From positions 7,514 through 71,513 of the forward strand of contig NZ_JAFRGN010000020.1 of NCBI RefSeq assembly GCF_017433805.1: a DNA stretch of 64,000 nt, in the 5' to 3' direction. This document shows, piece after piece, positions 35,412-50,957 of this stretch. Position 1 is the first letter of the stretch; every line of letters starts with the position of its first letter. The translations under genes were made by a program, and so were the position numbers. This DNA comes from Butyrivibrio sp. (GTDB lineage: Bacteria; Bacillota; Clostridia; Lachnospirales; Lachnospiraceae). The notes below the pieces were generated by a model that did no database searches, had not been told where the DNA came from, and worked only from the letters and a program-made list of their open reading frames with translations.

Positions 35412-36185
35412 ATGGAACTTAAAAAAATAACGGTGGCAGTGGTACTCTTACTACTGGCCGTAATATCTTTTACCAAGCTTGCACCATGGGCAGCAGATCC
35501 AAACAATCACACTCATTCCATTGAACAGACAGAAGAAAAGATTACAACAGTCATGACACTTTCAGGAGGGGCAGCGGCTACATCGGCTACGTTATCTCTT
35601 TTACCAGGTGATATGTGTACTCCGCTTTCTGAGCAGCTTGCTGAGCTGGCCAAGTACTTTCTGCTGGTTTTAAGTTCACTATATCTTGAGAAATTCATGA
35701 TCTGTATCACAGGGTATATAGCATTTTCTGTATTGATCCCGCTGGCGTGTGTTATTATGGCGGCATCGATACTGTTTGGGCAGGATAGCTGGAAGAGAAT
35801 ATCAGGTAAGATCGCAATCTTTGCAATAATAGTTTTTCTTATAGTTCCTGCCAGTGTTCAGCTGTCTGACATGGTGTACCAGACGCAGGCAGAAAGAGTA
35901 AACAATGCAGTTGAAGAGTACAATGAGCTTGATGTTGACGGAGATTCAGATGGCGGAATCATCAGTGATCTTAATACCATCACCAATTCTACGATTCAGA
36001 AAATAACTACATTTATTGGCAGTCTTTTGGAGGCCCTTGCAGTTATGCTTGTAACAGCCTGCATTATCCCAATTCTTGTTTTTGTGTTATTGGTGTGGCT
36101 TGGGAAGACCATTTTCAGCTCAAATGTAATGACACTGGATATTAGCTCATTGAATAAGATAAAAGAGAAACTGGATAAGCACTAA
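35412..36185 (+). CDS. Conserved hypothetical membrane protein
   Basis: Several hydrophobic helices; ATG 35412 behind GGAGGAG. Confidence 0.7.
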   Translation: MELKKITVAVVLLLLAVISFTKLAPWAADPNNHTHSIEQTEEKITTVMTLSGGAAATSATLSLLPGDMCTPLSEQLAELAKYFLLVLSSLYLEKFMICITGYIAFSVLIPLACVIMAASILFGQDSWKRISGKIAIFAIIVFLIVPASVQLSDMVYQTQAERVNNAVEEYNELDVDGDSDGGIISDLNTITNSTIQKITTFIGSLLEALAVMLVTACIIPILVFVLLVWLGKTIFSSNVMTLDISSLNKIKEKLDKH

Positions 36186-36205
36186 GATGAGCTTTGGGGG
36201 AGATT

Positions 36206-36787
36206 ATGAACGAATTTGACGAGAGGTACAGCACTGTGGAGGATGCCATTTTTGATTCCTTCTTTTTGCTGTTAAAAGAAAAAGAGATAGATAAGATTAC
36301 GGTTTCTGATGTGGTGAAAAAGGCTGGAATAGTAAGAAGTACTTTTTATAACCACTACGAGAATATTCCTACCCTTGTTAATGCTGCGGAGGAAAAGACA
36401 ATTGAGAAGATTTTTAATCTCATGGAGAGCTTCCATCCCAAGGATGACAGGGGAATCTGCAAATCATTTTTTCTTGCTATCTGTAATTACACCAAGGAGA
36501 ATCCCTTTTTGGGGACTCTCCTTGATAGTACCAGAGGCGATGCTTTTTTTGAGAAAATGCTGCTGATGTTTGACCGCTATATGCGCACTGTGACTGATGA
36601 TGAGGCCTATCAGATAAAAGACAGGAAGAGTGCCACCTACTATATAGCATCAAGCATTGGAAGTACTATAGGTGTTCTACATAAGTGGTCAACTACAGGT
36701 TTTGATGTGCCTGTGGATGAGATTGCAGACATCCTGACACAAGTCTTTGTAACAGGAATCCTGCCTGGACTAAGTAACAGAGCTTGA
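36206..36787 (+). CDS. TetR/AcrR-family regulator
   Basis: ITVSDVVKKAGIVRSTFYNHY HTH; ATG 36206 behind GGGGGAG. Confidence 0.9.
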   Translation: MNEFDERYSTVEDAIFDSFFLLLKEKEIDKITVSDVVKKAGIVRSTFYNHYENIPTLVNAAEEKTIEKIFNLMESFHPKDDRGICKSFFLAICNYTKENPFLGTLLDSTRGDAFFEKMLLMFDRYMRTVTDDEAYQIKDRKSATYYIASSIGSTIGVLHKWSTTGFDVPVDEIADILTQVFVTGILPGLSNRA

Positions 36788-36828
36788 GAGTAATACGAGA
36801 AAATGGATTCTGAAAATTGGATTATGAC

Positions 36829-38337
36829 TTAGGCAGGAACGTCTTCTGCTGCGTACTGCCTTAGGATTTTTCTTGTTGTATTGCGCCTGAATGGGTTTTC
36901 TCTTATAACAAGGTGAGCTATTCTTCTGTAGGAAGGCACACCACTATTGTATTCATCTAGAATCTTGCGCAGTTTTTCTTTTATTTTCTCAGAGTCTAAT
37001 TTCTTTTTGGCTATCAGCTCCTGATCTGGATATATTCTGGCAGTAAGGCCATTTCCATCTCCTGTTACTACGACTTCTTCGATTAGTGGATACAGGCAGA
37101 GCTTATTCTCTATTTCTTCAGGAGATACGTTTTCACCATTTGAAAGGATGATAAGGTTCTTGACTCGTCCGTTTATGAAAAGATATCCTTCTTCATCCAT
37201 ATAGCCCTTGTCTCCGGTATGAAGCCATCCATCTGAAAGTGCCTCATTAGTCTCTTTGGGCATTTTGTAATAGCCGGTCATAAGGCTGCTACTCTTAACC
37301 AGAATCTCACCATTTTTAAATCTGACTTCCGCGTTTTTCAGAACTTTACCAACGGAACCAGGTTTGTGGGCAGTTGGCGTATTTGTGCTGATAACAGGAG
37401 AGCATTCGCTCATTCCATAGCCTTCATAAACATTCACGCCATATTCAGCAAATTTCTCAATATAAAATGGATCGAGGTGGGCTCCACCTGAAAAGACAGT
37501 AGTCAGACGGCCGCCAAAAACCTTATTTGCCACAACCTTCTTGGGAAGGAGCTTTGCGGCGCCCTGAAGCTTTTTATATATGGTTTCAAGCATCATTGGA
37601 ACCATCAGCATAACCTCAGGCTTAAAGAGCTGCATGTTCTTTACCATGTGAAGGAAAGAGTCGTTGATGCAGACCGTTGAGCCAAGGGATAAGCATTTAA
37701 GATAGTCCATTACAAGACAGAAGGCGTGATGTATTGGTAGTACACTTAAGACAACTCTTCCAGGAACTGACTCATATTCTACAGCTTCCACATTGCTGAC
37801 AAGGTTCTTTTGGGTGAGCATTACGCCCTTGCTTTTGCCGGTAGTTCCTGAGGTAAAGATTATCATGGCTGTATTATCACCAGAAAGACCAAATACATCT
37901 GATGAATATGATGATGAGTCTTTTAGACTATGAAGTGAGTCCAGGTAATAAGTATTCCTGACCAAAGGGCAGGAAGTTTGCAGCTTTTCAGATAGAGCTT
38001 TCTTGGAAGTGTCAAGAAAAACAGCGCTGCTGTCTGACCTTACGAGAAGATCAATGATTTCCTCATCAGAAAGAAGCGGGTCAATAAGAACTGCAGTGTT
38101 ATCACCGGTTGTTATGGCAAAGAAGGCTTCAATCCAGCTTTCTGAGCTAAAACCTACGATTGCAATATGATCCTTACTAAGGCCATCCGCGCGAAGCCCT
38201 TTTCTTAACCTGGAAACATTCTGACCAAGTCCTGTGTAAGAAATTTCGGATACATCATTATTTACAGGCCATTTGAGTGCGGGAGTATCAGAGTATTCAT
38301 TTACCATATAATCAAAGAGCTGTCGTATACTTTCCAT
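36829..38337 (-). CDS. AMP-binding long-chain acyl-adenylating enzyme (FadD-like A domain)
   Basis: IIFTSGTTGKSKG, LPIHH, SGGA, GYGMSE, LHTGD, GRVKNLIILSNGENVSPEEIE, C-terminal TTRKI. Confidence 0.9.
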   Translation of the reverse strand: MESIRQLFDYMVNEYSDTPALKWPVNNDVSEISYTGLGQNVSRLRKGLRADGLSKDHIAIVGFSSESWIEAFFAITTGDNTAVLIDPLLSDEEIIDLLVRSDSSAVFLDTSKKALSEKLQTSCPLVRNTYYLDSLHSLKDSSSYSSDVFGLSGDNTAMIIFTSGTTGKSKGVMLTQKNLVSNVEAVEYESVPGRVVLSVLPIHHAFCLVMDYLKCLSLGSTVCINDSFLHMVKNMQLFKPEVMLMVPMMLETIYKKLQGAAKLLPKKVVANKVFGGRLTTVFSGGAHLDPFYIEKFAEYGVNVYEGYGMSECSPVISTNTPTAHKPGSVGKVLKNAEVRFKNGEILVKSSSLMTGYYKMPKETNEALSDGWLHTGDKGYMDEEGYLFINGRVKNLIILSNGENVSPEEIENKLCLYPLIEEVVVTGDGNGLTARIYPDQELIAKKKLDSEKIKEKLRKILDEYNSGVPSYRRIAHLVIRENPFRRNTTRKILRQYAAEDVPA

Positions 38338-38349
38338 AGTGATCTCCCT

Positions 38350-38589
38350 TTATAAGATTTTCTGTGCCATGCAGATTAGATCAAGAGCTTCGCCGATAGT
38401 GGTGATATTACCAACATTGTCGAGATTGAGCTCCAAGTCGAAGTTGTCCTCCAGGTCTCCCAAAAGAGACATGAAGTCAAAGGAGCTAAGACCAAGATCT
38501 TCGCAAAATCTCATATCGTTCTTCATGTCAGCAGGTGCTACGCTGCAGTACTGTGCCAGGAATTCTTTGAATAGTTTTTCGTTTTTCAT
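38350..38589 (-). CDS. Acyl carrier protein (T domain)
   Basis: 79 aa, acidic; EDLGLSSFDFMSLLGDLEDNF helix with phosphopantetheine Ser; TIGEA near the C-terminus. Confidence 0.88.
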   Translation of the reverse strand: MKNEKLFKEFLAQYCSVAPADMKNDMRFCEDLGLSSFDFMSLLGDLEDNFDLELNLDNVGNITTIGEALDLICMAQKIL

Positions 38590-38606
38590 ATTGTTTCTCC
38601 TCCGAT

Positions 38607-39992
38607 TTATACACTTTCTATAATGCTTCCTATGGTTATGTCAGGGGTTTCTATACCCGCAAACAGTATTTTCATCATGTAATAGTAGAAAAGCTCTATA
38701 TCTTTTTCCACAAGGTGCGCCGTCTGGTAATGGTAAGAAAAATTAAGGCCGCCCTCCGGAGTGTGGGTTACTGTCAGGTATACCTTCTTGGTGGCTGCGC
38801 CGTTTGCGTACCATTTGAAGTACAAAGGAATTCCGGAAAGGTCAAGGGTTTTATCTGTTATTTCCAGTGGCTGGTAGGTGAGGTAGCAGCTTTCGTAGGT
38901 TGTTCCATCCGGTGTGCCAAAGCGTCTTTTCATGGATGAATTTATCTTTTCCGGGTCGTAGTTACTGTGGATGTAGATATTATTCTGAGCGTTTTGTATC
39001 ATAAGTGCTGCATCCATAAAGCTTACTTTGCCTCCAATTATTGTTCTGCAGGGGAACATGATGGTGCGGCTTCCTCCGCTGGTCCATTCATCGTGGGTGG
39101 AGCGTCTTGCGATGAAGTTTTCAATTGTGATATCTTCCTGACCATCGTTAACCTTGGATAAATAGGTTCGCATGGATAGTAGCAGCAGATTGTTAAAAGA
39201 AATCCTGTTTTTGCTGCAAAAATCCATCAGGCGTCTTGTTGGTTCTGGTTCAAGTTTATAGTTTTTTACAGCTACATACAGGTTTTGAGTCTCGATATCA
39301 GCACTTCTAAGATTTGGATTGTTGTGAGCCAGCCTTGACTTTTCAAGGACTTTTTTACCCTGAATATCGGAATATAGAGGCTCGCCATATTTATCGAGCT
39401 GTCCTTCAAAGAAAGCCATGTCCCTGGTCAGGCGCTTTTCGTTTGTGGATTTAGTAAGGTCGGATATCAAAACGTCTTCGAATTTGGCAAGTGCCTCGGG
39501 GTAAGACTTTCCAAAGGCGTAGTGTGCATAAAGTGCCATGATATCTTTTACCATAACGGCGAGTCCGCAGGAATCAATGAGTCTGTGATCGATATGTACA
39601 AAAAAGCCATTGAAACCATCAGGAAGCTTTACCATCAGGAATTCATACATTGGAATATCATCTCCATCAAAGGTTTCATAAGCCATGGTCTGCAGGACAT
39701 TATCGGCTTCTTCAAAAGACATGGACGACAGACTTAGAATCTTGGTATTTCGTATTACTTTTCTTTTCAGGTATTGTCGTATCTGTCCGCTTTCATCAGG
39801 CTTGGTGAAGCGAAGATTTAGACATTCATATCTTTTGGTCTCTTCGTTGATACACCTTTTGAGAAGTGCAAAGTCAAGCTCCAGCTGAATTGCAGCGACA
39901 ATGCTGATTCCCGAAACCTGCTGGGTGTGATACTGCCGGATCCACTGATAATGCATGTTTTGGGCAGCAGTAAGGGGATATAATTTTTCCAT
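38607..39992 (-). CDS. Stand-alone condensation (C) domain protein
   Basis: YPLTAAQ, RYECLNLRF, active-site variant HIDHRLIDSCG (HHxxxDG-like), LLLSMRTYLS..GQEDI; 461 aa single domain. Confidence 0.85.
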   Translation of the reverse strand: MEKLYPLTAAQNMHYQWIRQYHTQQVSGISIVAAIQLELDFALLKRCINEETKRYECLNLRFTKPDESGQIRQYLKRKVIRNTKILSLSSMSFEEADNVLQTMAYETFDGDDIPMYEFLMVKLPDGFNGFFVHIDHRLIDSCGLAVMVKDIMALYAHYAFGKSYPEALAKFEDVLISDLTKSTNEKRLTRDMAFFEGQLDKYGEPLYSDIQGKKVLEKSRLAHNNPNLRSADIETQNLYVAVKNYKLEPEPTRRLMDFCSKNRISFNNLLLLSMRTYLSKVNDGQEDITIENFIARRSTHDEWTSGGSRTIMFPCRTIIGGKVSFMDAALMIQNAQNNIYIHSNYDPEKINSSMKRRFGTPDGTTYESCYLTYQPLEITDKTLDLSGIPLYFKWYANGAATKKVYLTVTHTPEGGLNFSYHYQTAHLVEKDIELFYYYMMKILFAGIETPDITIGSIIESV

Positions 39993-40025
39993 AACGTTCC
40001 TCCCTGTTAGTATTCTCTAACTGCA

Positions 40026-40040
40026 TGTGAAATTATCACA
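40026..40040. promoter_or_regulatory. Palindromic operator candidate overlapping an extended -10 of the C-ACP-A operon
   Basis: TGTGA-aatta-TCACA; on the minus strand it reads TGtGATAAT, 34 bp upstream of the C-domain start codon. Confidence 0.4.
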
Positions 40041-40238
40041 GAGAAAAGAAAGAGAAAATAGTGTTTTGGATTTAACATACACATTTACGTAAAGTGACCG
40101 AAACATATCGAACACTTGGGCCAATAATGTTTGATAACATGATTTAAAGGTCAGAAGTGCGGTTTAGATGCAGGTTTTGTAATAATAAGTTTTTTCTTGT
40201 GATACAATAGTGAAATCATATGAAGGAAGGGGAAAGCA

Positions 40239-41009
40239 ATGAACTATTTTATTGAAGGCCTTCAGGGAAGCGGAAAAAGCACACTGGTAGGGAAAATATC
40301 CGAGAAACATCCGGAATGCAAAGTGTATAGAGAAGGAGACTATTCTCCTGTTGAGCTTGCATGGTGTGCCTATGTCACCAGGCAGGAATATGCAGACTAT
40401 CTTGATAAATATGAGAATCTAAGAAGCGAGCTTGAGGAAAAGAGCCATGAAGAAGGGGATAAGGTGATTATCTGCTACACTCAGATAATTACTGATACTC
40501 CTGGCTTCCACAAAGATCTTGAGCAGCATGAAATATACAACGGTCGTGTCAGCAGACAGGAGTTCAAGGAGATTATCTTAAGACGACTTTCTAATTGGAA
40601 TGGAGATAATAGCATATTCGAGTGTTCAATTTTCCAGAATATTGTAGAGGATATGATCCTATTCCAGAATGCATCTGATGAGGAGATTGTTGATTTCTAC
40701 AAGGAAATCAGTAAAGCATTAGGGGATAAAGAATTCAAGATTTACTATCTTAAATCTGAGGATATCGAAGGCAACATCGGTGTTATCAGAAAAGAGAGAT
40801 CTGATGATAAGGGAAATGAAATGTGGTTTCCGCTTATGATCGGATACTTTAACGAGTCTCCTTATGCAGTTAAAAATGGGCTCTCTGGGGAGAATGCTCT
40901 TTTTGCACACTTTAGGCACAGACAGGAGCTGGAGCTGAGGATTTTACAGGAAGTGTTCGCTGGAAAGTATGTGGTACTGAAGTCTAAGGGTTATGAGGAT
41001 GTGGACTGA
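40239..41009 (+). CDS. P-loop nucleoside/nucleotide kinase-like protein
   Basis: N-terminal FIEGLQGSGKST (dNK/TMPK-type Walker A); substrate unknown. Confidence 0.65.
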   Translation: MNYFIEGLQGSGKSTLVGKISEKHPECKVYREGDYSPVELAWCAYVTRQEYADYLDKYENLRSELEEKSHEEGDKVIICYTQIITDTPGFHKDLEQHEIYNGRVSRQEFKEIILRRLSNWNGDNSIFECSIFQNIVEDMILFQNASDEEIVDFYKEISKALGDKEFKIYYLKSEDIEGNIGVIRKERSDDKGNEMWFPLMIGYFNESPYAVKNGLSGENALFAHFRHRQELELRILQEVFAGKYVVLKSKGYEDVD

Positions 41010-46053: not shown

Positions 46054-47949
46054 ATGTGGAATTACTCATATGTTTTTCCAAGTTTATTAATACTATTCAT
46101 ATTAGTCAGCTATTATTTTATGCTGCCACGAATTCCAATCAGAATGAACCGTACCTTCATTCATCTGATTGGTATCGAGTGTGTAGTTATGATAATGGAC
46201 ATCATATCCTCCTGGGCAGATATGAATTATCAGCTCTTCCCAAGATGGGCTCTCTATGCCCTTAACAATCTGTATTTCATTGCATTCTTTGCAAGAGCTT
46301 TATTCTTCTGTGTATTTACCATAAGCGTCTTAAGACTGGAATTTCTCAATAACCACTTTAAATATTTACTTGTTATGGTTCCGTTTGTATTAGAATCTGT
46401 ACTTGTATTGATCACGCCATTTACCAGGAATTTCTACTATATGGATGACACCGGCTATCACAGTGCGCCTTTATACAACACACTTTATCTTTTGTTCTGG
46501 CTGTATCTTGGCATCAGTTTTTTTGCAATTCTAACTCATAAGGAAAGACCTAGGAGTAAAAGAGAGTTTAATACTGCGCTCTGGATCAACACAATTCTTC
46601 TTATAGGAACTATCTGCAGACTGGCTTTTCCACAGTATCTTCTCATGGATACCTTCTGTCTCATTGCGCTTCTTGTAAGCTATCTGTCCTACATGAATCC
46701 TGACTTTTACCTTGAGGGTAGAACCTGGATTTTTAATACCAGAGCCATAAGAGAGTACCTGGATGAGATAAATGGGCAAAAGAAATACCGGATATTTGCT
46801 TTTGCTATCCATGATTACAGAGATGTGAGAGAGCTGTATGGAATAAGACAGATGGATCGCGGTGTTAACCTGATTTGCGATTATCTTAAAAAGACCTTCC
46901 CTAACAAGATTGTTTTCTATTATAGAAGCGGACGCTTTGGAATTGTCTGTGATGACAAAGATAATATAGATAAAATACATGAAACCTTGCAGGAAAAATT
47001 CAGCGAACCATGGGTTTCAGATGATGTAGAGCTTTATGTTGAGATAGGCTGCGCACTCTTAAATCCCGGTGATAGGAAGCTTGATTATAACACCATGACA
47101 CAGGTTCTCATGACTGCTTTTAACGAGGCTGATCTGGCTGAAAAGCATGAAATCAGAGTAATAGACGAGGCGGGTCTTCAAAAGGCAGAAAAAGAGCTTG
47201 AGATCAAAAGAGCTATCGAATATGCTGTTGATCATGATGCGGTAGAGATTTTCCTGCAACCTATTATGGATGCTGCTACAGGTAAGCTTGCGGGTGCAGA
47301 AGCGCTTGCAAGAATCAGAGATGCAGAAGGCAACGTTATTCCTCCAGGCCTCTTTATTCCAATAGCAGAACACAACGGACGAATATCAGAGCTTGGAACC
47401 CAGGTGTTTATTAAGACCTGTAAGTTTATCAAGGAAAATAATATCAAAGAGCTGGGACTTAATTGGATAAATGTTAACCTTTCACCGATTCAGTTCATGA
47501 AGGCTAATCTTGGTAATAACCTTATGCACTACATCAAGAAATACGACATTGACCCCAGATTCATTCATCTGGAGATCACTGAGGAAGCCATGGTCGACGA
47601 TCAGCTCCTTGTTTATCAGACCAATATGATAAAAGAGATGGGCTTCCACTTTGTGCTTGATGACTACGGCAAAGGTTATTCCAACCTGACAAGATTAAAA
47701 AGATGTCCATTTATTAATATCAAACTTGATATGAGCATAGTTTGGGACTACTGCAGAAAGCCTGATGTTATGCTGCCTAACATGGTCAAAACCTTTGCAA
47801 GTATGGGCTTTGGCATAACAGCTGAAGGCATAGAAAGCGAATATATGGCCCAGACTATGGCTGCACTTGGATGCACATATTTACAGGGTTACTACTATTC
47901 AAAGCCTATTTCTGTTGATGAATTTATCAAAAAATATTCACAAGGATAA
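46054..47949 (+). CDS. Membrane EAL-domain c-di-GMP phosphodiesterase (degenerate GGDEF)
   Basis: About 7 TM helices; FLQPI, AEALARI, VNLSP, LEITE, LDDYGKGYS, IKLDMS, AEGIE, QGYYYSKP. Confidence 0.88.
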   Translation: MWNYSYVFPSLLILFILVSYYFMLPRIPIRMNRTFIHLIGIECVVMIMDIISSWADMNYQLFPRWALYALNNLYFIAFFARALFFCVFTISVLRLEFLNNHFKYLLVMVPFVLESVLVLITPFTRNFYYMDDTGYHSAPLYNTLYLLFWLYLGISFFAILTHKERPRSKREFNTALWINTILLIGTICRLAFPQYLLMDTFCLIALLVSYLSYMNPDFYLEGRTWIFNTRAIREYLDEINGQKKYRIFAFAIHDYRDVRELYGIRQMDRGVNLICDYLKKTFPNKIVFYYRSGRFGIVCDDKDNIDKIHETLQEKFSEPWVSDDVELYVEIGCALLNPGDRKLDYNTMTQVLMTAFNEADLAEKHEIRVIDEAGLQKAEKELEIKRAIEYAVDHDAVEIFLQPIMDAATGKLAGAEALARIRDAEGNVIPPGLFIPIAEHNGRISELGTQVFIKTCKFIKENNIKELGLNWINVNLSPIQFMKANLGNNLMHYIKKYDIDPRFIHLEITEEAMVDDQLLVYQTNMIKEMGFHFVLDDYGKGYSNLTRLKRCPFINIKLDMSIVWDYCRKPDVMLPNMVKTFASMGFGITAEGIESEYMAQTMAALGCTYLQGYYYSKPISVDEFIKKYSQG

Positions 47950-47975: not shown

Positions 47976-48005
47976 AAAAAGAGTAGTGGCGGCGCTACTC
48001 TTTTT
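47976..48005. terminator. Intrinsic terminator
   Basis: aaaaagagtagtg/cgctactcttttt. Confidence 0.75.
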
Positions 48006-48057
48006 AATTGTGATGAGCAAGACGTGCTATGGATGTGCATTTACGAGAGGTGACAGT

Positions 48058-48897
48058 GTGAAAAAAGGGCTTGTACTTGAGGGCGGCGCTATGCGAGGTA
48101 TGTTTACCTGCGGCGTTTTGGATGTTTTAATGGAAAACGATATTTCTTTTGACGGGGCAGTAGGAGTGTCGGCAGGAGCTACCTTTGGCTGCAATATCAA
48201 GTCCCATCAGATAGGCCGTGCCTACAGATATAACAAGAAGTACTGCTCAGATCCCCGCTATCACAGTATCAGATCACTTATCACCACTGGTGATATCTAT
48301 AACGTGCCATTTTGCTACGATGAGCTTCCCTATAGGCTTGATAAATGGGATACCAAGGCTTTTGCAGACAGCCCAATGGAGTTTTACTGCGTGGTTACTG
48401 ACATTAACACAGGAAGACCCGTTTATCACAAATGCAATGATGGACAAAAAGAGGACATCACCTGGATTCAGGCATCCGCTTCTATGCCGATTGTTTCAAG
48501 GCCAGTTCACATTGACGGCGGAGTGTATCTGGACGGTGGAATCTCAGATTCAATTCCTCTTAAATTTATGGAAGATAAGGGCTATGACGACATACTGGTC
48601 GTAGAGACCCAGCCAGTTGACTATGTCAAAGGCAAACAGAAATACATGCCAGTTGTCAGATGGTCACTCAGGAAGTATCCCAATATGATTAAGTGCATGG
48701 AAGAGCGCTATATTATGTATAACGAGGAAAAGAAATACATAAGGCAGCAGGAGCTTGCCGGTAAAGTACGAGTAATAAGGCCCAAGGAGCCACTTAATAT
48801 AAGCTCGATAGAAAAAGATCCAGCCCAGATAGAGAGAGTTTATAAACTGGGAAGACAGGCGGGGGAGGAGTACCTCGCAAAGGAGAAGCAAAAATGA
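48058..48897 (+). CDS. Patatin-like phospholipase/acyl hydrolase
   Basis: GGAMRG oxyanion loop, GVSAG nucleophile elbow, LDGG. GTG start 48058 behind GAGAGG. Confidence 0.9.
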   Translation: MKKGLVLEGGAMRGMFTCGVLDVLMENDISFDGAVGVSAGATFGCNIKSHQIGRAYRYNKKYCSDPRYHSIRSLITTGDIYNVPFCYDELPYRLDKWDTKAFADSPMEFYCVVTDINTGRPVYHKCNDGQKEDITWIQASASMPIVSRPVHIDGGVYLDGGISDSIPLKFMEDKGYDDILVVETQPVDYVKGKQKYMPVVRWSLRKYPNMIKCMEERYIMYNEEKKYIRQQELAGKVRVIRPKEPLNISSIEKDPAQIERVYKLGRQAGEEYLAKEKQK

Positions 48898-50957
48898 AGA
48901 AAGAATATGAACCACTGTTTACGCCCTGGAAGATTGGAAATTGTGAGATCAAGAATAGAATAGTCCTTACTTCTATGGGCGGTACAGACCTCTTTGGATG
49001 GATGGAAAAGAACCATTTTGATAAGGCAGGAGCAGACTTTATTCTGGAAGTTGCAAGGAACAACGCAGGACTTGTGCTTCCTGGATGCCAGCCAGTTTAC
49101 AATCCAATGTTTGGTCAGTGGCTTTATACCAATAAGAAAATGTATCAGGACCTTGCTGAGTGGATGAAGGAGTTCCACAAGACAGGAGCCAAGCTTTTTG
49201 TGCAGCTCACTGCCGGCTTCGGACGCTCTTTTACCATAAGTCCTATGATGGAAAAATTATATACCAACAAGGTGCTCAGAGTCCTCAGTAAGCCTGTAAT
49301 GGACCTTGATAAGATCACAGCATCAGCCAGCGATTCACCTAACCGCTGGTCAGACGTGGTGCCATCAAGAGCCCTCACTGTTGACGAGATTCATGAATAT
49401 GTAACTGCCTTTGGTAAGACTGCAGAGCTTCTCAAGAAGGCCGGCGTTGACGGCGTTGAGGTTCATGCGGTTCATGAAGGATACCTTTTGGACCAGTTCA
49501 CACTTGATTATGTCAACAAAAGAACTGACGAATACGGCGGAAGCTTCGAGAACAAGTACCGTTTTGCCTGCGAGATAGTTCAGGAGATCAAGAAAAAATG
49601 TGGTAAGGATTTCCCTGTTTCCCTTCGCTACAGCGTAATCTCCAAGACAAGAGGCTTCAGACAGGGAGCGCTTCCAGGGGAAGACTACGACGAAGTTGGA
49701 CGTGACTTTGAAGAGAGCAAAAGAGCTGCCAAATACCTGCAGGATGCTGGCTACGACATGCTCAACTGCGATAACGGAACCTATGATGCCTGGTACTGGG
49801 CACATCCTCCTATCTATATGCCTGAGAACTGTAACCTTGAGGATGTTGCAAACCTTCGTAAATACGTGGACATTCCAGTTGTCTGCGCTGGCAGAATGAA
49901 TCCAACAGTGGCAGCAGAGGCTGTTACAGCTGGAAGAATTGACGGAGCAGGCTTTGCAAGGCAGTTCCTTGCTGATACAGAGTGGGTAACCAAGCTCATG
50001 GCAGACAAAGAGGAGGATATCAGACCTTGTATCCTCTGTCATAACGGCTGCTTTAACATGTGCCACTACAAGGGAGTTCCTAATGATCAGGACCTTTCAG
50101 ACAGTCTGCACCTTGCAAGATGCGCAGTTAATGCCGAGACTATGCAGAAGGATAAACATCACATAAAGAAGACCAAGCACCCTAAAAAGGTTATCATCAT
50201 CGGCGGCGGTATTGGTGGTATGGAGGCTGCAAGAGTACTTAAGCTTCGTGGCCACGAGCCTGTTATCTATGAGAAAACTGATGAGCTTGGTGGAACCTTC
50301 ATTGCTGCAAGTGCAGAATCCTATAAGGGTAAGCTCCGCGATCTTCTTGCATGGTATCGCAGACAGATGGAGCAGCTGGGAATCGAGATTCACTTTAATA
50401 CTGAGATAACCGATGTCAAAGAGTTTGGTAAGCACGACATTATCATTGCTACTGGCGCTGTTCCCAGAAAGCTTAAGAGTGTTCCGGGACATGAGCTCAT
50501 GATAGAGGCCTGTGAGTACCTTAGAGGCGCAGAGGTTGGTGATAAGGTCGTAGTAGTAGGCGGAGGCCTTACGGGTTGTGAAATTGCCTATGAGCTTGCA
50601 CTTCAGGGCAAGAAACCTGTCACTGTTGAGATGAAGGACGACATCATTTCACAGAAGGGTGTGTGCCTTGCAAACAGCTCATATCTCAGAGAATGGTTTG
50701 ATCTGTACAGAGTTCCAGTTTACCTTGAGACCACTCTCAAAGAGGTTTGGGAGGATTGCATCGTCTGCGTAGACAAAAATGGCAAGGAATTCACTATTGA
50801 CTGCGACAGCGTCATCAGTAGTGCCGGCTATATTCCTAATCCTGTTGTCAAAGAAAATGAGAGAGAGAGCAACATGGACTATATTGGCGACTGCAAGCAG
50901 GTAGGGAATCTTAGAAGCGTAATATGGCGTGCATACGAGGTAGCTATGCGCATCTGA
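48894..50957 (+). CDS. 2-enoate reductase-like flavoenzyme (OYE barrel + [4Fe-4S] + FAD/NAD domain)
   Basis: QLTAGFGR, VHAVHEGYLLDQF, YDAWYWAHPP, CILCHNGC...C cluster, GGGIGG and GGGLTG dinucleotide motifs. Confidence 0.82.
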   Translation: MKKEYEPLFTPWKIGNCEIKNRIVLTSMGGTDLFGWMEKNHFDKAGADFILEVARNNAGLVLPGCQPVYNPMFGQWLYTNKKMYQDLAEWMKEFHKTGAKLFVQLTAGFGRSFTISPMMEKLYTNKVLRVLSKPVMDLDKITASASDSPNRWSDVVPSRALTVDEIHEYVTAFGKTAELLKKAGVDGVEVHAVHEGYLLDQFTLDYVNKRTDEYGGSFENKYRFACEIVQEIKKKCGKDFPVSLRYSVISKTRGFRQGALPGEDYDEVGRDFEESKRAAKYLQDAGYDMLNCDNGTYDAWYWAHPPIYMPENCNLEDVANLRKYVDIPVVCAGRMNPTVAAEAVTAGRIDGAGFARQFLADTEWVTKLMADKEEDIRPCILCHNGCFNMCHYKGVPNDQDLSDSLHLARCAVNAETMQKDKHHIKKTKHPKKVIIIGGGIGGMEAARVLKLRGHEPVIYEKTDELGGTFIAASAESYKGKLRDLLAWYRRQMEQLGIEIHFNTEITDVKEFGKHDIIIATGAVPRKLKSVPGHELMIEACEYLRGAEVGDKVVVVGGGLTGCEIAYELALQGKKPVTVEMKDDIISQKGVCLANSSYLREWFDLYRVPVYLETTLKEVWEDCIVCVDKNGKEFTIDCDSVISSAGYIPNPVVKENERESNMDYIGDCKQVGNLRSVIWRAYEVAMRI

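What the first reader, a model, noticed from the sequence alone, without database searches (positions are those of the whole stretch)
36829..39992. Minimal NRPS-like C-ACP-A cluster: candidate fatty-acid-amide (acyl-amine conjugate) pathway with a variant condensation active site
Seen: three co-transcribed minus-strand genes with 12-17 bp gaps encoding a stand-alone condensation domain, a 79-aa carrier protein and a FadD-like adenylating enzyme. There is no amino-acid A domain, thioesterase or tailoring enzyme. Known: this C/T/A trio is the architecture of the gut-Clostridia fatty-acid-amide pathways (Chang et al., Nat Microbiol 2021), which join fatty acids to amines such as tryptamine or dopamine to give host GPCR ligands. 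Seen: the catalytic motif is DHRLIDS instead of HHxxxDG, and the carrier motif is LGLSS instead of GxDS. Inference: a probably rumen-type Lachnospiraceae makes acyl amides or esters with an uncharacterised acceptor, possibly also as a way to detoxify unsaturated fatty acids.
Basis: partly seen in the sequence, partly recalled or inferred. Interest (0 to 1): 0.72.

Follow-up and report, generated by a model that had tools for sequence, protein, structure and literature searches.

The report
Known-type fatty-acid-amide operon in Butyrivibrio
This is an intact but ordinary copy of the already described three-gene "CTA" operon that Lachnospiraceae gut bacteria use to join fatty acids to amines; its odd-looking active-site motifs are the family's normal signature, and the one addition here is a conserved neighbouring TetR regulator gene.

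Summary
Three minus-strand genes with 17- and 12-bp gaps encode a free-standing condensation protein (461 aa), a 79-aa acyl carrier protein and a 502-aa fatty-acid-type adenylating enzyme, all above Pfam cut-offs. The C protein is 52% identical over its full length to OaaC of Coprococcus eutactus (PDB 12KH), the structurally and biochemically characterised fatty-acid-amide (FAA) condensation enzyme. DHxxxDS is the published hallmark of that clade: DHRLxDSC occurs in 80/80 related loci, and the ACP motif LG(F/L)(S/T)S in nearly all. The fatty-acid-detoxification idea was proposed in a 2026 Blautia preprint. Relatives occur in at least 298 species genomes. The window belongs to a Butyrivibrio clade from ruminant guts and carries the minimal form, without the alpha/beta-hydrolase found upstream of C in 46/77 loci. 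Two increments come from this work. A convergent TetR regulator (36206-36787) accompanies the operon in 64/65 loci. A conserved extended -10-like element, a perfect palindrome in the window (40026-40040), lies upstream of C. I infer fatty-acid-responsive control. The amine acceptor cannot be predicted. Verdict: new member of a known kind, low interest.

The parts
38607..39992 (-). Free-standing FAA-type condensation protein (OaaC orthologue-like, 461 aa). Catalytic motif DHRLIDS is residues 135-141 (nt 39570-39590). The family-specific insertion helix is retained at residues ~211-224.
   Evidence: Pfam Condensation 89.4 bits. PDB 12KH (OaaC) 536 bits, full length, ungapped over the insertion helix. 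52% identity to OaaC. 1252 homologues, the 120 listed at 63-99% identity.
38350..38589 (-). Dedicated 79-aa acyl carrier protein. The predicted phosphopantetheine attachment site is Ser36 (nt 38482-38484) in EDLGLSSFDFM.
   Evidence: PP-binding 34 bits. Below-cut-off hits to NCBIfam acyl_carrier models. Alignment to B. subtilis AcpP places Ser36 on the modified Ser. The motif is conserved in nearly all related loci.
36829..38337 (-). Free-standing fatty-acid-type adenylating enzyme (502 aa) that should load the ACP. It has the A3 motif TSGTTGKSKG and a C-terminal TRKILR (A10-like Lys).
   Evidence: AMP-binding 205.9 bits plus AMP-binding_C_3. The best NCBIfam model is the long-chain-fatty-acid--CoA ligase subfamily NF004837 at 240 bits, below its cut-off. 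Motifs are conserved across the family. There is no close solved structure; the best is 117 bits.
36206..36787 (+). Convergent TetR/AcrR-family regulator (193 aa from the ATG; an alternative TTG start lies at 36194). It is a conserved fourth component of the module. Its stop codon lies 41 bp from the stop codon of A.
   Evidence: TetR_N plus TetR_C_8. Present in 64/65 related loci with room, and in 62 convergent immediately downstream of A. 3/3 independently chosen orthologues sit next to A-ACP. 1285 homologue clusters, the 120 listed at 60-94% identity. AF2 model with pLDDT 80, whose nearest folds are FasR and FadR.
40026..40040 (-). TGTGATAATTTCACA, a perfect 5-N5-5 palindrome 34-48 nt upstream of the C start codon. 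It matches the extended -10 form TGTGnTAnnnT. It is a candidate promoter -10 region overlapped by a candidate TetR operator.
   Evidence: TGTGNTA lies within 120 nt upstream of C in 49/80 loci, against a background of 0.03 per 120 nt. Non-seed positions are conserved: T14 in 49/49 and C17 in 40/49. It is the only exact match in the window. 40 of 52 strong PWM hits in 888 kb lie upstream of C.
40068..40110 (-). Distal non-coding block conserved within the Butyrivibrio clade (...TTCGGTCAnTTT...AAATGTGTnTGTTAAnTC). Its role is unassigned; it could be a second promoter or operator element.
   Evidence: Alignment of upstream regions of the window and L001-L004.
39999..40005 (-). Shine-Dalgarno sequence AGGGAGG for the C gene.
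   Evidence: Read directly from the sequence.

Best explanation
This is an intact, minimal fatty-acid-amide (FAA / 'CTA') operon of a ruminant-gut Butyrivibrio-like Lachnospiraceae. By homology to the reconstituted OaaA/OaaACP/OaaC system, it should work as follows. The A enzyme adenylates a free medium- or long-chain fatty acid and thioesterifies it onto the phosphopantetheine arm on Ser36 of the dedicated ACP. The free-standing C protein, using His136 of DHRLIDS as the catalytic base, then transfers the acyl group to a freely diffusing small amine and releases an N-acyl amide without any thioesterase. These steps are inferred from orthology and were not shown here. The module's conserved fourth gene, a convergent TetR regulator, most likely represses the operon from the conserved extended -10/palindrome element upstream of C and releases it when a lipid ligand (a free fatty acid or an acyl thioester) accumulates. 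That would make the operon an inducible way to mask the toxic free carboxyl group of unsaturated fatty acids. This regulatory part is my inference. The amine acceptor cannot be read from the sequence.
For: All three domain calls are well above their Pfam cut-offs. The C protein matches OaaC (PDB 12KH) over its full length at 536 bits, E 6e-160 and 52% identity, and keeps the OaaC-specific insertion helix. The DHxxxDS signature is described for the FAA clade (PMC13310621), and DHRLxDSC is present in 80/80 loci. The C-ACP-A order is conserved in essentially every related locus among at least 298 species genomes. ACP Ser36 aligns to the AcpP attachment Ser, and the A-domain core motifs are intact. 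In vitro, OaaA/OaaACP/OaaC make FAAs with acyl donors of several chain lengths (PMC13310621). CTA+ Blautia and Coprococcus isolates make more acyl amines than CTA- relatives, and dopamine rescues B. wexlerae growth in oleic or linoleic acid (PMC13060934). PUFA are bacteriostatic to Butyrivibrio fibrisolvens, whereas their methyl esters are harmless, so masking the carboxyl group removes the toxicity (PMC2836310). For the regulatory part: the TetR is linked in 64/65 loci and in 3/3 reverse look-ups, the motif is specific to the region upstream of C, and the TetR model's nearest folds are the acyl-sensing regulators FasR, FadR, AlkX and PfmR.
Against: No product, substrate or expression data exist for this organism, and the public RNA runs were uninformative. 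Characterised family members at similar identity use different amines (tryptamine, 5-aminovalerate, dopamine, putrescine), so acceptor specificity is open. The best NCBIfam hits for A are CoA-ligase models below their cut-offs, so loading of the ACP rather than CoA rests on homology alone. The TetR structural matches have TM-scores of only about 0.6, which is usual for any TetR pair, and the model has mean pLDDT 80. Dyad symmetry of the upstream element is only partial across the family, and the conserved positions are explained by an extended -10 promoter alone. No PPTase is encoded nearby, so activation must rely on a PPTase encoded elsewhere in the genome.
Confidence: 0.85

Rival explanations
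1. The chemistry is the same, but the acceptor is a hydroxyl group rather than an amine. The C protein would make fatty acyl esters, for example O-acylating an alcohol, a sugar or a lipid head group, as some condensation-superfamily enzymes do.
For: Condensation-fold enzymes can form esters (established knowledge of the superfamily). The acceptor cannot be read from the sequence. The Butyrivibrio clade is only 47-52% identical to OaaC.
Against: Every characterised member of this clade makes amides with small amines. The catalytic motif and the whole active-site block HxDHRLxDSCG are invariant between the window and the amide-forming branches.
Confidence: 0.06
2. The A enzyme and ACP act as an acyl-ACP synthetase that salvages exogenous fatty acids for membrane or other lipid synthesis, and the C protein is an acyltransferase towards a cellular lipid. 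Acyl amides seen in vitro would then be a side reaction.
For: The family is highly conserved (62-75% identity across genera), sits in core chromosome next to housekeeping genes, and has a lipid-regulator-like TetR. One relative (L082) keeps TetR, A and ACP but has no C gene.
Against: CTA+ isolates accumulate more acyl amines than CTA- relatives, and amines rescue growth in fatty acids. The ACP is a dedicated divergent one, below all AcpP equivalog cut-offs. No phospholipid acyltransferase is linked to the operon.
Confidence: 0.06
3. The trio is a lipo-initiation (starter) module that works in trans with a larger NRPS or PKS encoded elsewhere in the genome.
For: FAA C domains are phylogenetically closest to C-starter domains (PMC13310621).
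Against: No NRPS or PKS gene is present in the genes scanned within about 15 kb on either side, nor in the 6-kb flanks of the related loci whose called genes were listed. The three-gene unit is self-contained in at least 298 species. The reconstituted system needs no acceptor carrier protein.
Confidence: 0.02

Closest known systems
OaaC / OaaACP / OaaA of Coprococcus eutactus ATCC 27759 (oleoyl aminovaleric acid pathway; OaaC crystal structure PDB 12KH; Chang et al. 2021, Singh et al. 2026)
   Same: Three free-standing proteins of the same kinds (the C-ACP-A gene order was checked in the related loci, not in C. eutactus itself). The C proteins are 52% identical over their full length. Both have the DHRL(I/M)DSCG motif and the 17-residue insertion helix, and neither has a thioesterase or an acceptor carrier protein.
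   Different: The window's protein lies in a separate Butyrivibrio-only clade from ruminant guts. The acceptor amine and preferred acyl chain are unknown. Homodimer regulation was not tested.
'CTA operon' of Blautia wexlerae and other human-gut Lachnospiraceae (oleoyl dopamine, acyl ethanolamines; PMC13060934, PMC10871352)
   Same: Same operon. The C protein is about 63% identical to the copy in Ruminococcus sp. 5_1_39BFAA, which is Blautia-like by my own recollection of its taxonomy and not checked here (L050). The proposed role in detoxifying unsaturated fatty acids fits Butyrivibrio physiology.
   Different: L050 (Ruminococcus sp. 5_1_39BFAA) has the hydrolase homologue nearby, and most other loci have it directly upstream of C; the window lacks it. 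The host is a ruminant-gut Butyrivibrio rather than a human-gut Blautia.
Enterocloster ecf/ebf FAA clusters (IBD-enriched; N-oleoyl putrescine and related FAAs)
   Same: Stand-alone C, T and A genes of the same NRPS-like group.
   Different: ecf/ebf have six genes, adding a PPTase, an SCP2-like lipid-transfer protein and a hydrolase. None of these was found around the window's operon.
Starter (lipo-initiation) condensation domains of lipopeptide NRPSs, and free-standing amine-accepting C proteins such as VibH
   Same: Condensation fold with an acyl donor. Like VibH, the acceptor is a free small-molecule amine.
   Different: The donor is an acyl-ACP loaded by a stand-alone A enzyme rather than acyl-CoA or an aryl carrier protein. 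The motif is DHxxxDS instead of HHxxxDG. The family forms a distinct monophyletic clade.
Acyl-sensing TetR regulators: FadR (Bacillus subtilis, B. halodurans, Thermus) and FasR (M. tuberculosis)
   Same: These are the nearest structural matches to the AF2 model of the window's TetR. All are TetR regulators that control lipid-metabolism genes.
   Different: Sequence identity is only 11-18% and TM-scores are about 0.6. The window's protein belongs to Pfam TetR_C_8. Its ligand and operator are untested.

Membership tests
FAA / CTA pathway (Chang et al. 2021; Singh et al. 2026) | Free-standing condensation protein belonging to the C_FAA clade | tested here: met
   Full-length match to OaaC (12KH) at 536 bits, E 6e-160 and 52% identity. 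The next PDB hit (PvdL) scores only 21.5 bits. Pfam Condensation 89.4 bits.
FAA / CTA pathway | Non-canonical (D/H)HxxxD(S/A/G) catalytic motif with the second His and the Asp conserved | tested here: met
   DHRLIDS at residues 135-141. DHRLxDSC is present in 80/80 related loci. The motif is described in PMC13310621.
FAA / CTA pathway | Stand-alone carrier protein with a Ser attachment site, encoded between C and A | tested here: met
   79-aa PP-binding protein. Ser36 aligns to the AcpP Ser. The C-T-A order is conserved in the related loci. PMC13060934 states that T lies between C and A in all homologues.
FAA / CTA pathway | Stand-alone fatty-acid-type adenylating enzyme, not an amino-acid A domain | tested here: met
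   AMP-binding plus AMP-binding_C_3. The best NCBIfam hits are long-chain fatty-acid ligase models. It is 54-75% identical to the A genes of loci where A is complete.
FAA / CTA pathway | No acceptor PCP, thioesterase or further NRPS module | tested here: met
   Pfam scans of the flanking genes between 22 and 55 kb show none.
FAA / CTA pathway | ACP is phosphopantetheinylated and acylated by A, and C releases an N-acyl amide from a free amine | not testable with these tools
   This needs biochemistry. It is known for OaaA/OaaACP/OaaC.
FAA / CTA pathway | OaaC-type 17-residue insertion helix (OaaC Gln214-His224) | tested here: met
   The window's QGKKVLEKSRLAHNN aligns without gaps to OaaC's QGQRILQESRRLHND.
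Extended FAA clusters (ecf/ebf type, or hydrolase-C-T-A type) | Accessory hydrolase (with or without PPTase and SCP2-like protein) adjacent to C | tested here: not met
   The hydrolase is directly upstream of C in 46/77 loci but has no hit in the whole window or in the Butyrivibrio clade.
Fatty-acid/acyl-CoA-sensing TetR regulators (FadR/FasR type) | Binds a long-chain acyl ligand and an operator at the regulated promoter | tested here: inconclusive
   The top Foldseek hits are FasR and FadR, but at TM about 0.6 and 11-18% identity. A candidate operator is conserved upstream of C. No binding data exist.

The most novel reading that the evidence does not exclude
The CTA module is not a three-gene 'host-signalling' cluster. 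It is a four-gene, TetR-controlled, fatty-acid-inducible detoxification regulon inherited across Lachnospiraceae. In rumen Butyrivibrio it would provide a second, unrecognised route besides biohydrogenation for coping with dietary polyunsaturated fatty acids: it would divert them into N-acyl amides made with abundant rumen amines such as putrescine, cadaverine, tyramine, 5-aminovalerate or ethanolamine. That would influence the fate of PUFA in ruminants and produce bioactive lipids there.
Probability: 0.3. Interest if true: 0.5.

Novelty: new member of a known kind. Interest (0 to 1): 0.2.

Why it matters
The finding adds little on its own. The pathway family, its non-canonical motif, a crystal structure and the detoxification hypothesis are all published. 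Its value is in the context. It shows that the FAA/CTA operon is widespread in ruminant-gut Butyrivibrio and other Lachnospiraceae, with relatives in at least 298 species genomes. It shows that a minimal, hydrolase-less form exists. It also shows that a dedicated TetR regulator and a conserved promoter element travel with the operon. Together these give a concrete, testable handle on when these bacteria make acyl amides, and a possible link to PUFA toxicity and biohydrogenation in the rumen.

Tried and rejected
1. Transcription evidence. RNA-labelled public runs held only 6% of the sampled words, and the contigs laid on the region were shallow and of uncertain library type. Nothing can be said about co-transcription or induction.

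2. Rfam scan of 35800-40500 at E <= 0.1. No riboswitch or other RNA family was found.

3. Autoregulation. No PWM hit lies within 200 nt upstream of the TetR genes in any locus. In the window the TetR starts 20 nt after the stop of the upstream membrane-protein gene and may be read through from it.

4. Operator by palindrome. The TGTGA-N5-TCACA palindrome is perfect in the window, but only 2 of 49 family instances are perfect. The conserved core is sufficiently explained as an extended -10, so the operator assignment stays a hypothesis.

5. Solved structures for A and the ACP. No FAA-specific entries exist; only generic acyl-CoA ligases, luciferases and AcpP turned up.

6. Predicting the acceptor amine. 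The paper's acceptor-site residues are given only in a figure that is not held, and characterised relatives at similar identity use different amines. I abandoned this.

7. Chang et al. 2021. The paper is not in the held library. Its content is cited only through PMC13310621, PMC10871352 and PMC13060934, so I cannot exclude that its cluster figures already show the TetR.

8. Neighbouring genes. The P-loop (PRK06761-like), PNP_UDP_1, DUF4230 and membrane-protein genes are not conserved next to CTA in other genomes and were rejected as parts of the module.

9. Mobile-element or island origin. I rejected this: the flanks are housekeeping genes and the GC content is unremarkable.
Full report
**Observation.**
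- C: 38607-39992, 461 aa
- ACP: 38350-38589, 79 aa
- A: 36829-38337, 502 aa

The intergenic gaps are 17 and 12 bp. Each gene has its own Shine-Dalgarno sequence, and there is no room for a promoter or terminator between them. An operon is therefore the natural reading, although it is not demonstrated. Pfam confirms all three domain assignments far above the curated cut-offs: Condensation 89.4 bits, PP-binding 34 bits, and AMP-binding 205.9 bits plus AMP-binding_C_3 40.4 bits. DHRLIDS is residues 135-141 of C. LGLSS is residues 32-36 of the ACP, and the second Ser (Ser36) aligns to the phosphopantetheinylated Ser of B. subtilis AcpP. The A protein has intact core motifs, TSGTTGKSKG and a C-terminal TRKILR. 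Its best NCBIfam matches are long-chain fatty-acid ligase models, all below their equivalog cut-offs.

**What it is.** The C protein matches one solved structure over its full length: PDB 12KH, at 536 bits and E 6e-160. The next PDB hit scores 21.5 bits. 12KH is OaaC of Coprococcus eutactus, the free-standing condensation enzyme of the oleoyl-aminovaleric-acid pathway (PMC13310621). Identity is 52% over 458 aligned residues, and the OaaC-specific insertion helix (Gln214-His224) aligns without gaps.

That paper, citing Chang et al. 2021, states that FAA condensation domains carry a non-canonical (D/H)HxxxDS motif, form a monophyletic clade next to starter C domains, and work with a stand-alone A enzyme and ACP on freely diffusing amines. 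In my own survey, DHRLxDSC is present in 80/80 related loci and the ACP motif LG(F/L)(S/T)S in nearly all.

**Distribution and taxonomy.** The protein database holds at least 1252 homologue clusters; the 120 listed are 63-99% identical. A scan of one genome per species found 298 genomes that encode a relative. The closest is Butyrivibrio sp. AE3009 at 75%, followed by rumen Butyrivibrio MAGs. In a distance tree the window groups with these in a Butyrivibrio-only clade. The window's own sequence is present in sheep and bovine gut metagenomes, and a 99%-identical copy with identical gene order lies on an ENA metagenome contig. The flanking genes are core chromosome, including the priA-fmt-rsmB-rlmN-PP2C-PASTA kinase-rsgA block, and the GC content is unremarkable. 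This is not an island.

**Architecture across the family.** tblastn of the window's proteins against the 80 best loci shows C-ACP-A in that order wherever the contig allows. Two accessory genes vary.
- **Alpha/beta-hydrolase.** A homologue lies directly upstream of C on the same strand in 46 of 77 loci with room, and nearby in 7 more. It is absent from the whole 64-kb window and from the Butyrivibrio clade.
- **ecf/ebf accessories.** The PPTase and SCP2-like genes of the Enterocloster ecf/ebf clusters (PMC10871352) were not found in the flanking genes scanned.

'Minimal' is therefore an accurate description.

Immediately downstream of A, convergent and with the two stop codons 41 bp apart, lies a TetR/AcrR regulator. 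It runs from 36206 to 36787 (193 aa from the ATG; TetR_N plus TetR_C_8).
- **Linkage.** It is present in 64 of 65 related loci with enough sequence, and in 62 of them in the same convergent position. Identity to the window's TetR is 46-85%. Three independently chosen orthologues all sit next to A-ACP.
- **Family size.** It has about 1285 homologue clusters, comparable to the C family.
- **Literature.** The word TetR does not occur in the four FAA papers I could read, and a literature search found nothing relevant. Chang et al. 2021 is not held, so I cannot exclude that the gene appears in its figures.
- **Structure.** An AlphaFold2 model (pLDDT 80) has as its nearest solved folds FasR, Bacillus and Thermus FadR, AlkX, PfmR and a C. 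perfringens fatty-acid regulator. This is suggestive, but TM-scores of about 0.6 are usual within the TetR family, so I treat it as weak support.

**Regulatory DNA.** The sequence TGTGATAATTTCACA (40026-40040, minus strand) begins 48 nt upstream of the C start codon. It is a perfect 5-N5-5 palindrome and the only exact match to the family pattern in the window.
- **Conservation.** TGTGNTA occurs within 120 nt upstream of C in 49/80 loci, against a background of 0.03 per 120 nt. Positions outside the seed are also conserved: T14 in 49/49 and C17 in 40/49.
- **Specificity.** A PWM built from these instances places 40 of its 52 strong hits in 888 kb upstream of C, and none upstream of the TetR genes. 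The PWM was built from those same instances, so this is partly circular.
- **Reading.** The invariant positions spell TGTGnTAnnnT, the Firmicute extended -10 form, so the element is first of all a promoter. The additional C-n-C-A conservation gives partial dyad symmetry and makes an overlapping operator plausible but unproven.
- **Second block.** Within the Butyrivibrio clade a distal block at about 40068-40110 is also conserved.

No Rfam family matches the region.

**Mechanism.** By orthology with the reconstituted Oaa system:
1. A adenylates a free fatty acid and loads it on holo-ACP at Ser36.
2. C, using His136, transfers the acyl group to a free amine and releases the amide. No thioesterase is needed.

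For the physiological role, the best current evidence is from Blautia. CTA+ isolates make more acyl amines than CTA- relatives, unsaturated fatty acids inhibit most Lachnospiraceae, and dopamine, serotonin, ethanolamine or GABA rescue growth (PMC13060934). Butyrivibrio fibrisolvens is strongly inhibited by PUFA, but not by their methyl esters (PMC2836310). This fits the idea that masking the carboxyl group detoxifies them. I therefore propose that the TetR couples operon expression to lipid load. That step is inference. The amine acceptor cannot be predicted, because characterised relatives at similar identity use tryptamine, 5-aminovalerate, dopamine or putrescine.

**Rivals.** I considered three alternatives and rate each unlikely:
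- **Ester formation.** Every characterised member of the clade makes amides.
- **Acyl-ACP salvage for lipid synthesis.** The operon is linked to acyl-amine production in live bacteria.
- **A trans-acting starter module for a larger NRPS.** The three-gene unit is self-contained, and no NRPS lies in the scanned flanks.

**Verdict.** This is a new member of a known kind: a minimal, hydrolase-less form in a ruminant-gut Butyrivibrio clade. The modest increments are the near-universal TetR partner and the conserved promoter element. Interest is low, about 0.2.

Noticed in passing
window 47986-48897 (+) and 48894-50957 (+): A patatin-like phospholipase gene (Patatin plus DUF6363) overlaps by 4 nt a 687-aa Old-Yellow-Enzyme/FadH-like reductase gene (Oxidored_FMN plus Pyr_redox_2). 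In a Butyrivibrio-like rumen bacterium this pair could be a lipolysis plus unsaturated-fatty-acid reduction (biohydrogenation) unit, about 8 kb from the CTA operon.
   Followed up: no
L082 5001-7436 (ENA ERZ1029114 contig k87_21467601): A variant locus has the orthologous TetR, A and ACP genes and the alpha/beta-hydrolase, but no C gene (no tblastn hit). A response-regulator-GGDEF-HD protein occupies the position of C.
   Followed up: partly
L084/L085 9014-10030, and 46 of 77 related loci: An alpha/beta-hydrolase (Hydrolase_4/Abhydrolase_1, about 320-340 aa) lies directly upstream of C on the same strand in most genera, so the commonest architecture is hydrolase-C-ACP-A plus TetR. It is missing from the window and the Butyrivibrio clade. 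Its role is unknown; it could be a lipase supplying fatty acids or a proofreading thioesterase.
   Followed up: partly
L084/L085 1-4421 and L086 1-3168: Hybrid sensor histidine kinases, one of them carrying a DegV (fatty-acid-binding) domain, sit next to the TetR in two different CTA loci. This hints at further fatty-acid sensing in the neighbourhood.
   Followed up: no
window 36186-36208: The TetR ORF can start at TTG 36194 or ATG 36206. The 99%-identical ENA contig is called from the ATG (193 aa). The ATG start is only 20 nt after the stop of the upstream 262-aa membrane-protein gene, so in this species the TetR may be co-transcribed with the DUF4230/membrane-protein pair, which is not conserved next to CTA elsewhere.
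   Followed up: partly
window, whole: Gene orientation is strongly biased. About 43 of 50 large ORFs are on the + strand, and the GC skew is positive throughout. The CTA operon is one of the few minus-strand (presumably lagging-strand) units.
   Followed up: no
window 40239-41009 (+): A 256-aa P-loop protein, divergent from C, resembles NCBIfam PRK06761 'hypothetical protein' (136 bits, below the cut-off of 270). It is followed by a PNP_UDP_1 phosphorylase-family protein, a polysaccharide deacetylase, a HAD hydrolase and a GNAT acetyltransferase. None is conserved beside CTA in other genomes.
   Followed up: partly
window 46054-47949 (+): A 631-aa protein has a hydrophobic N-terminal half and a C-terminal EAL domain, with no GGDEF hit at E <= 1e-4. 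GGDEF/EAL proteins also flank CTA operons in L082 and L084.
   Followed up: no
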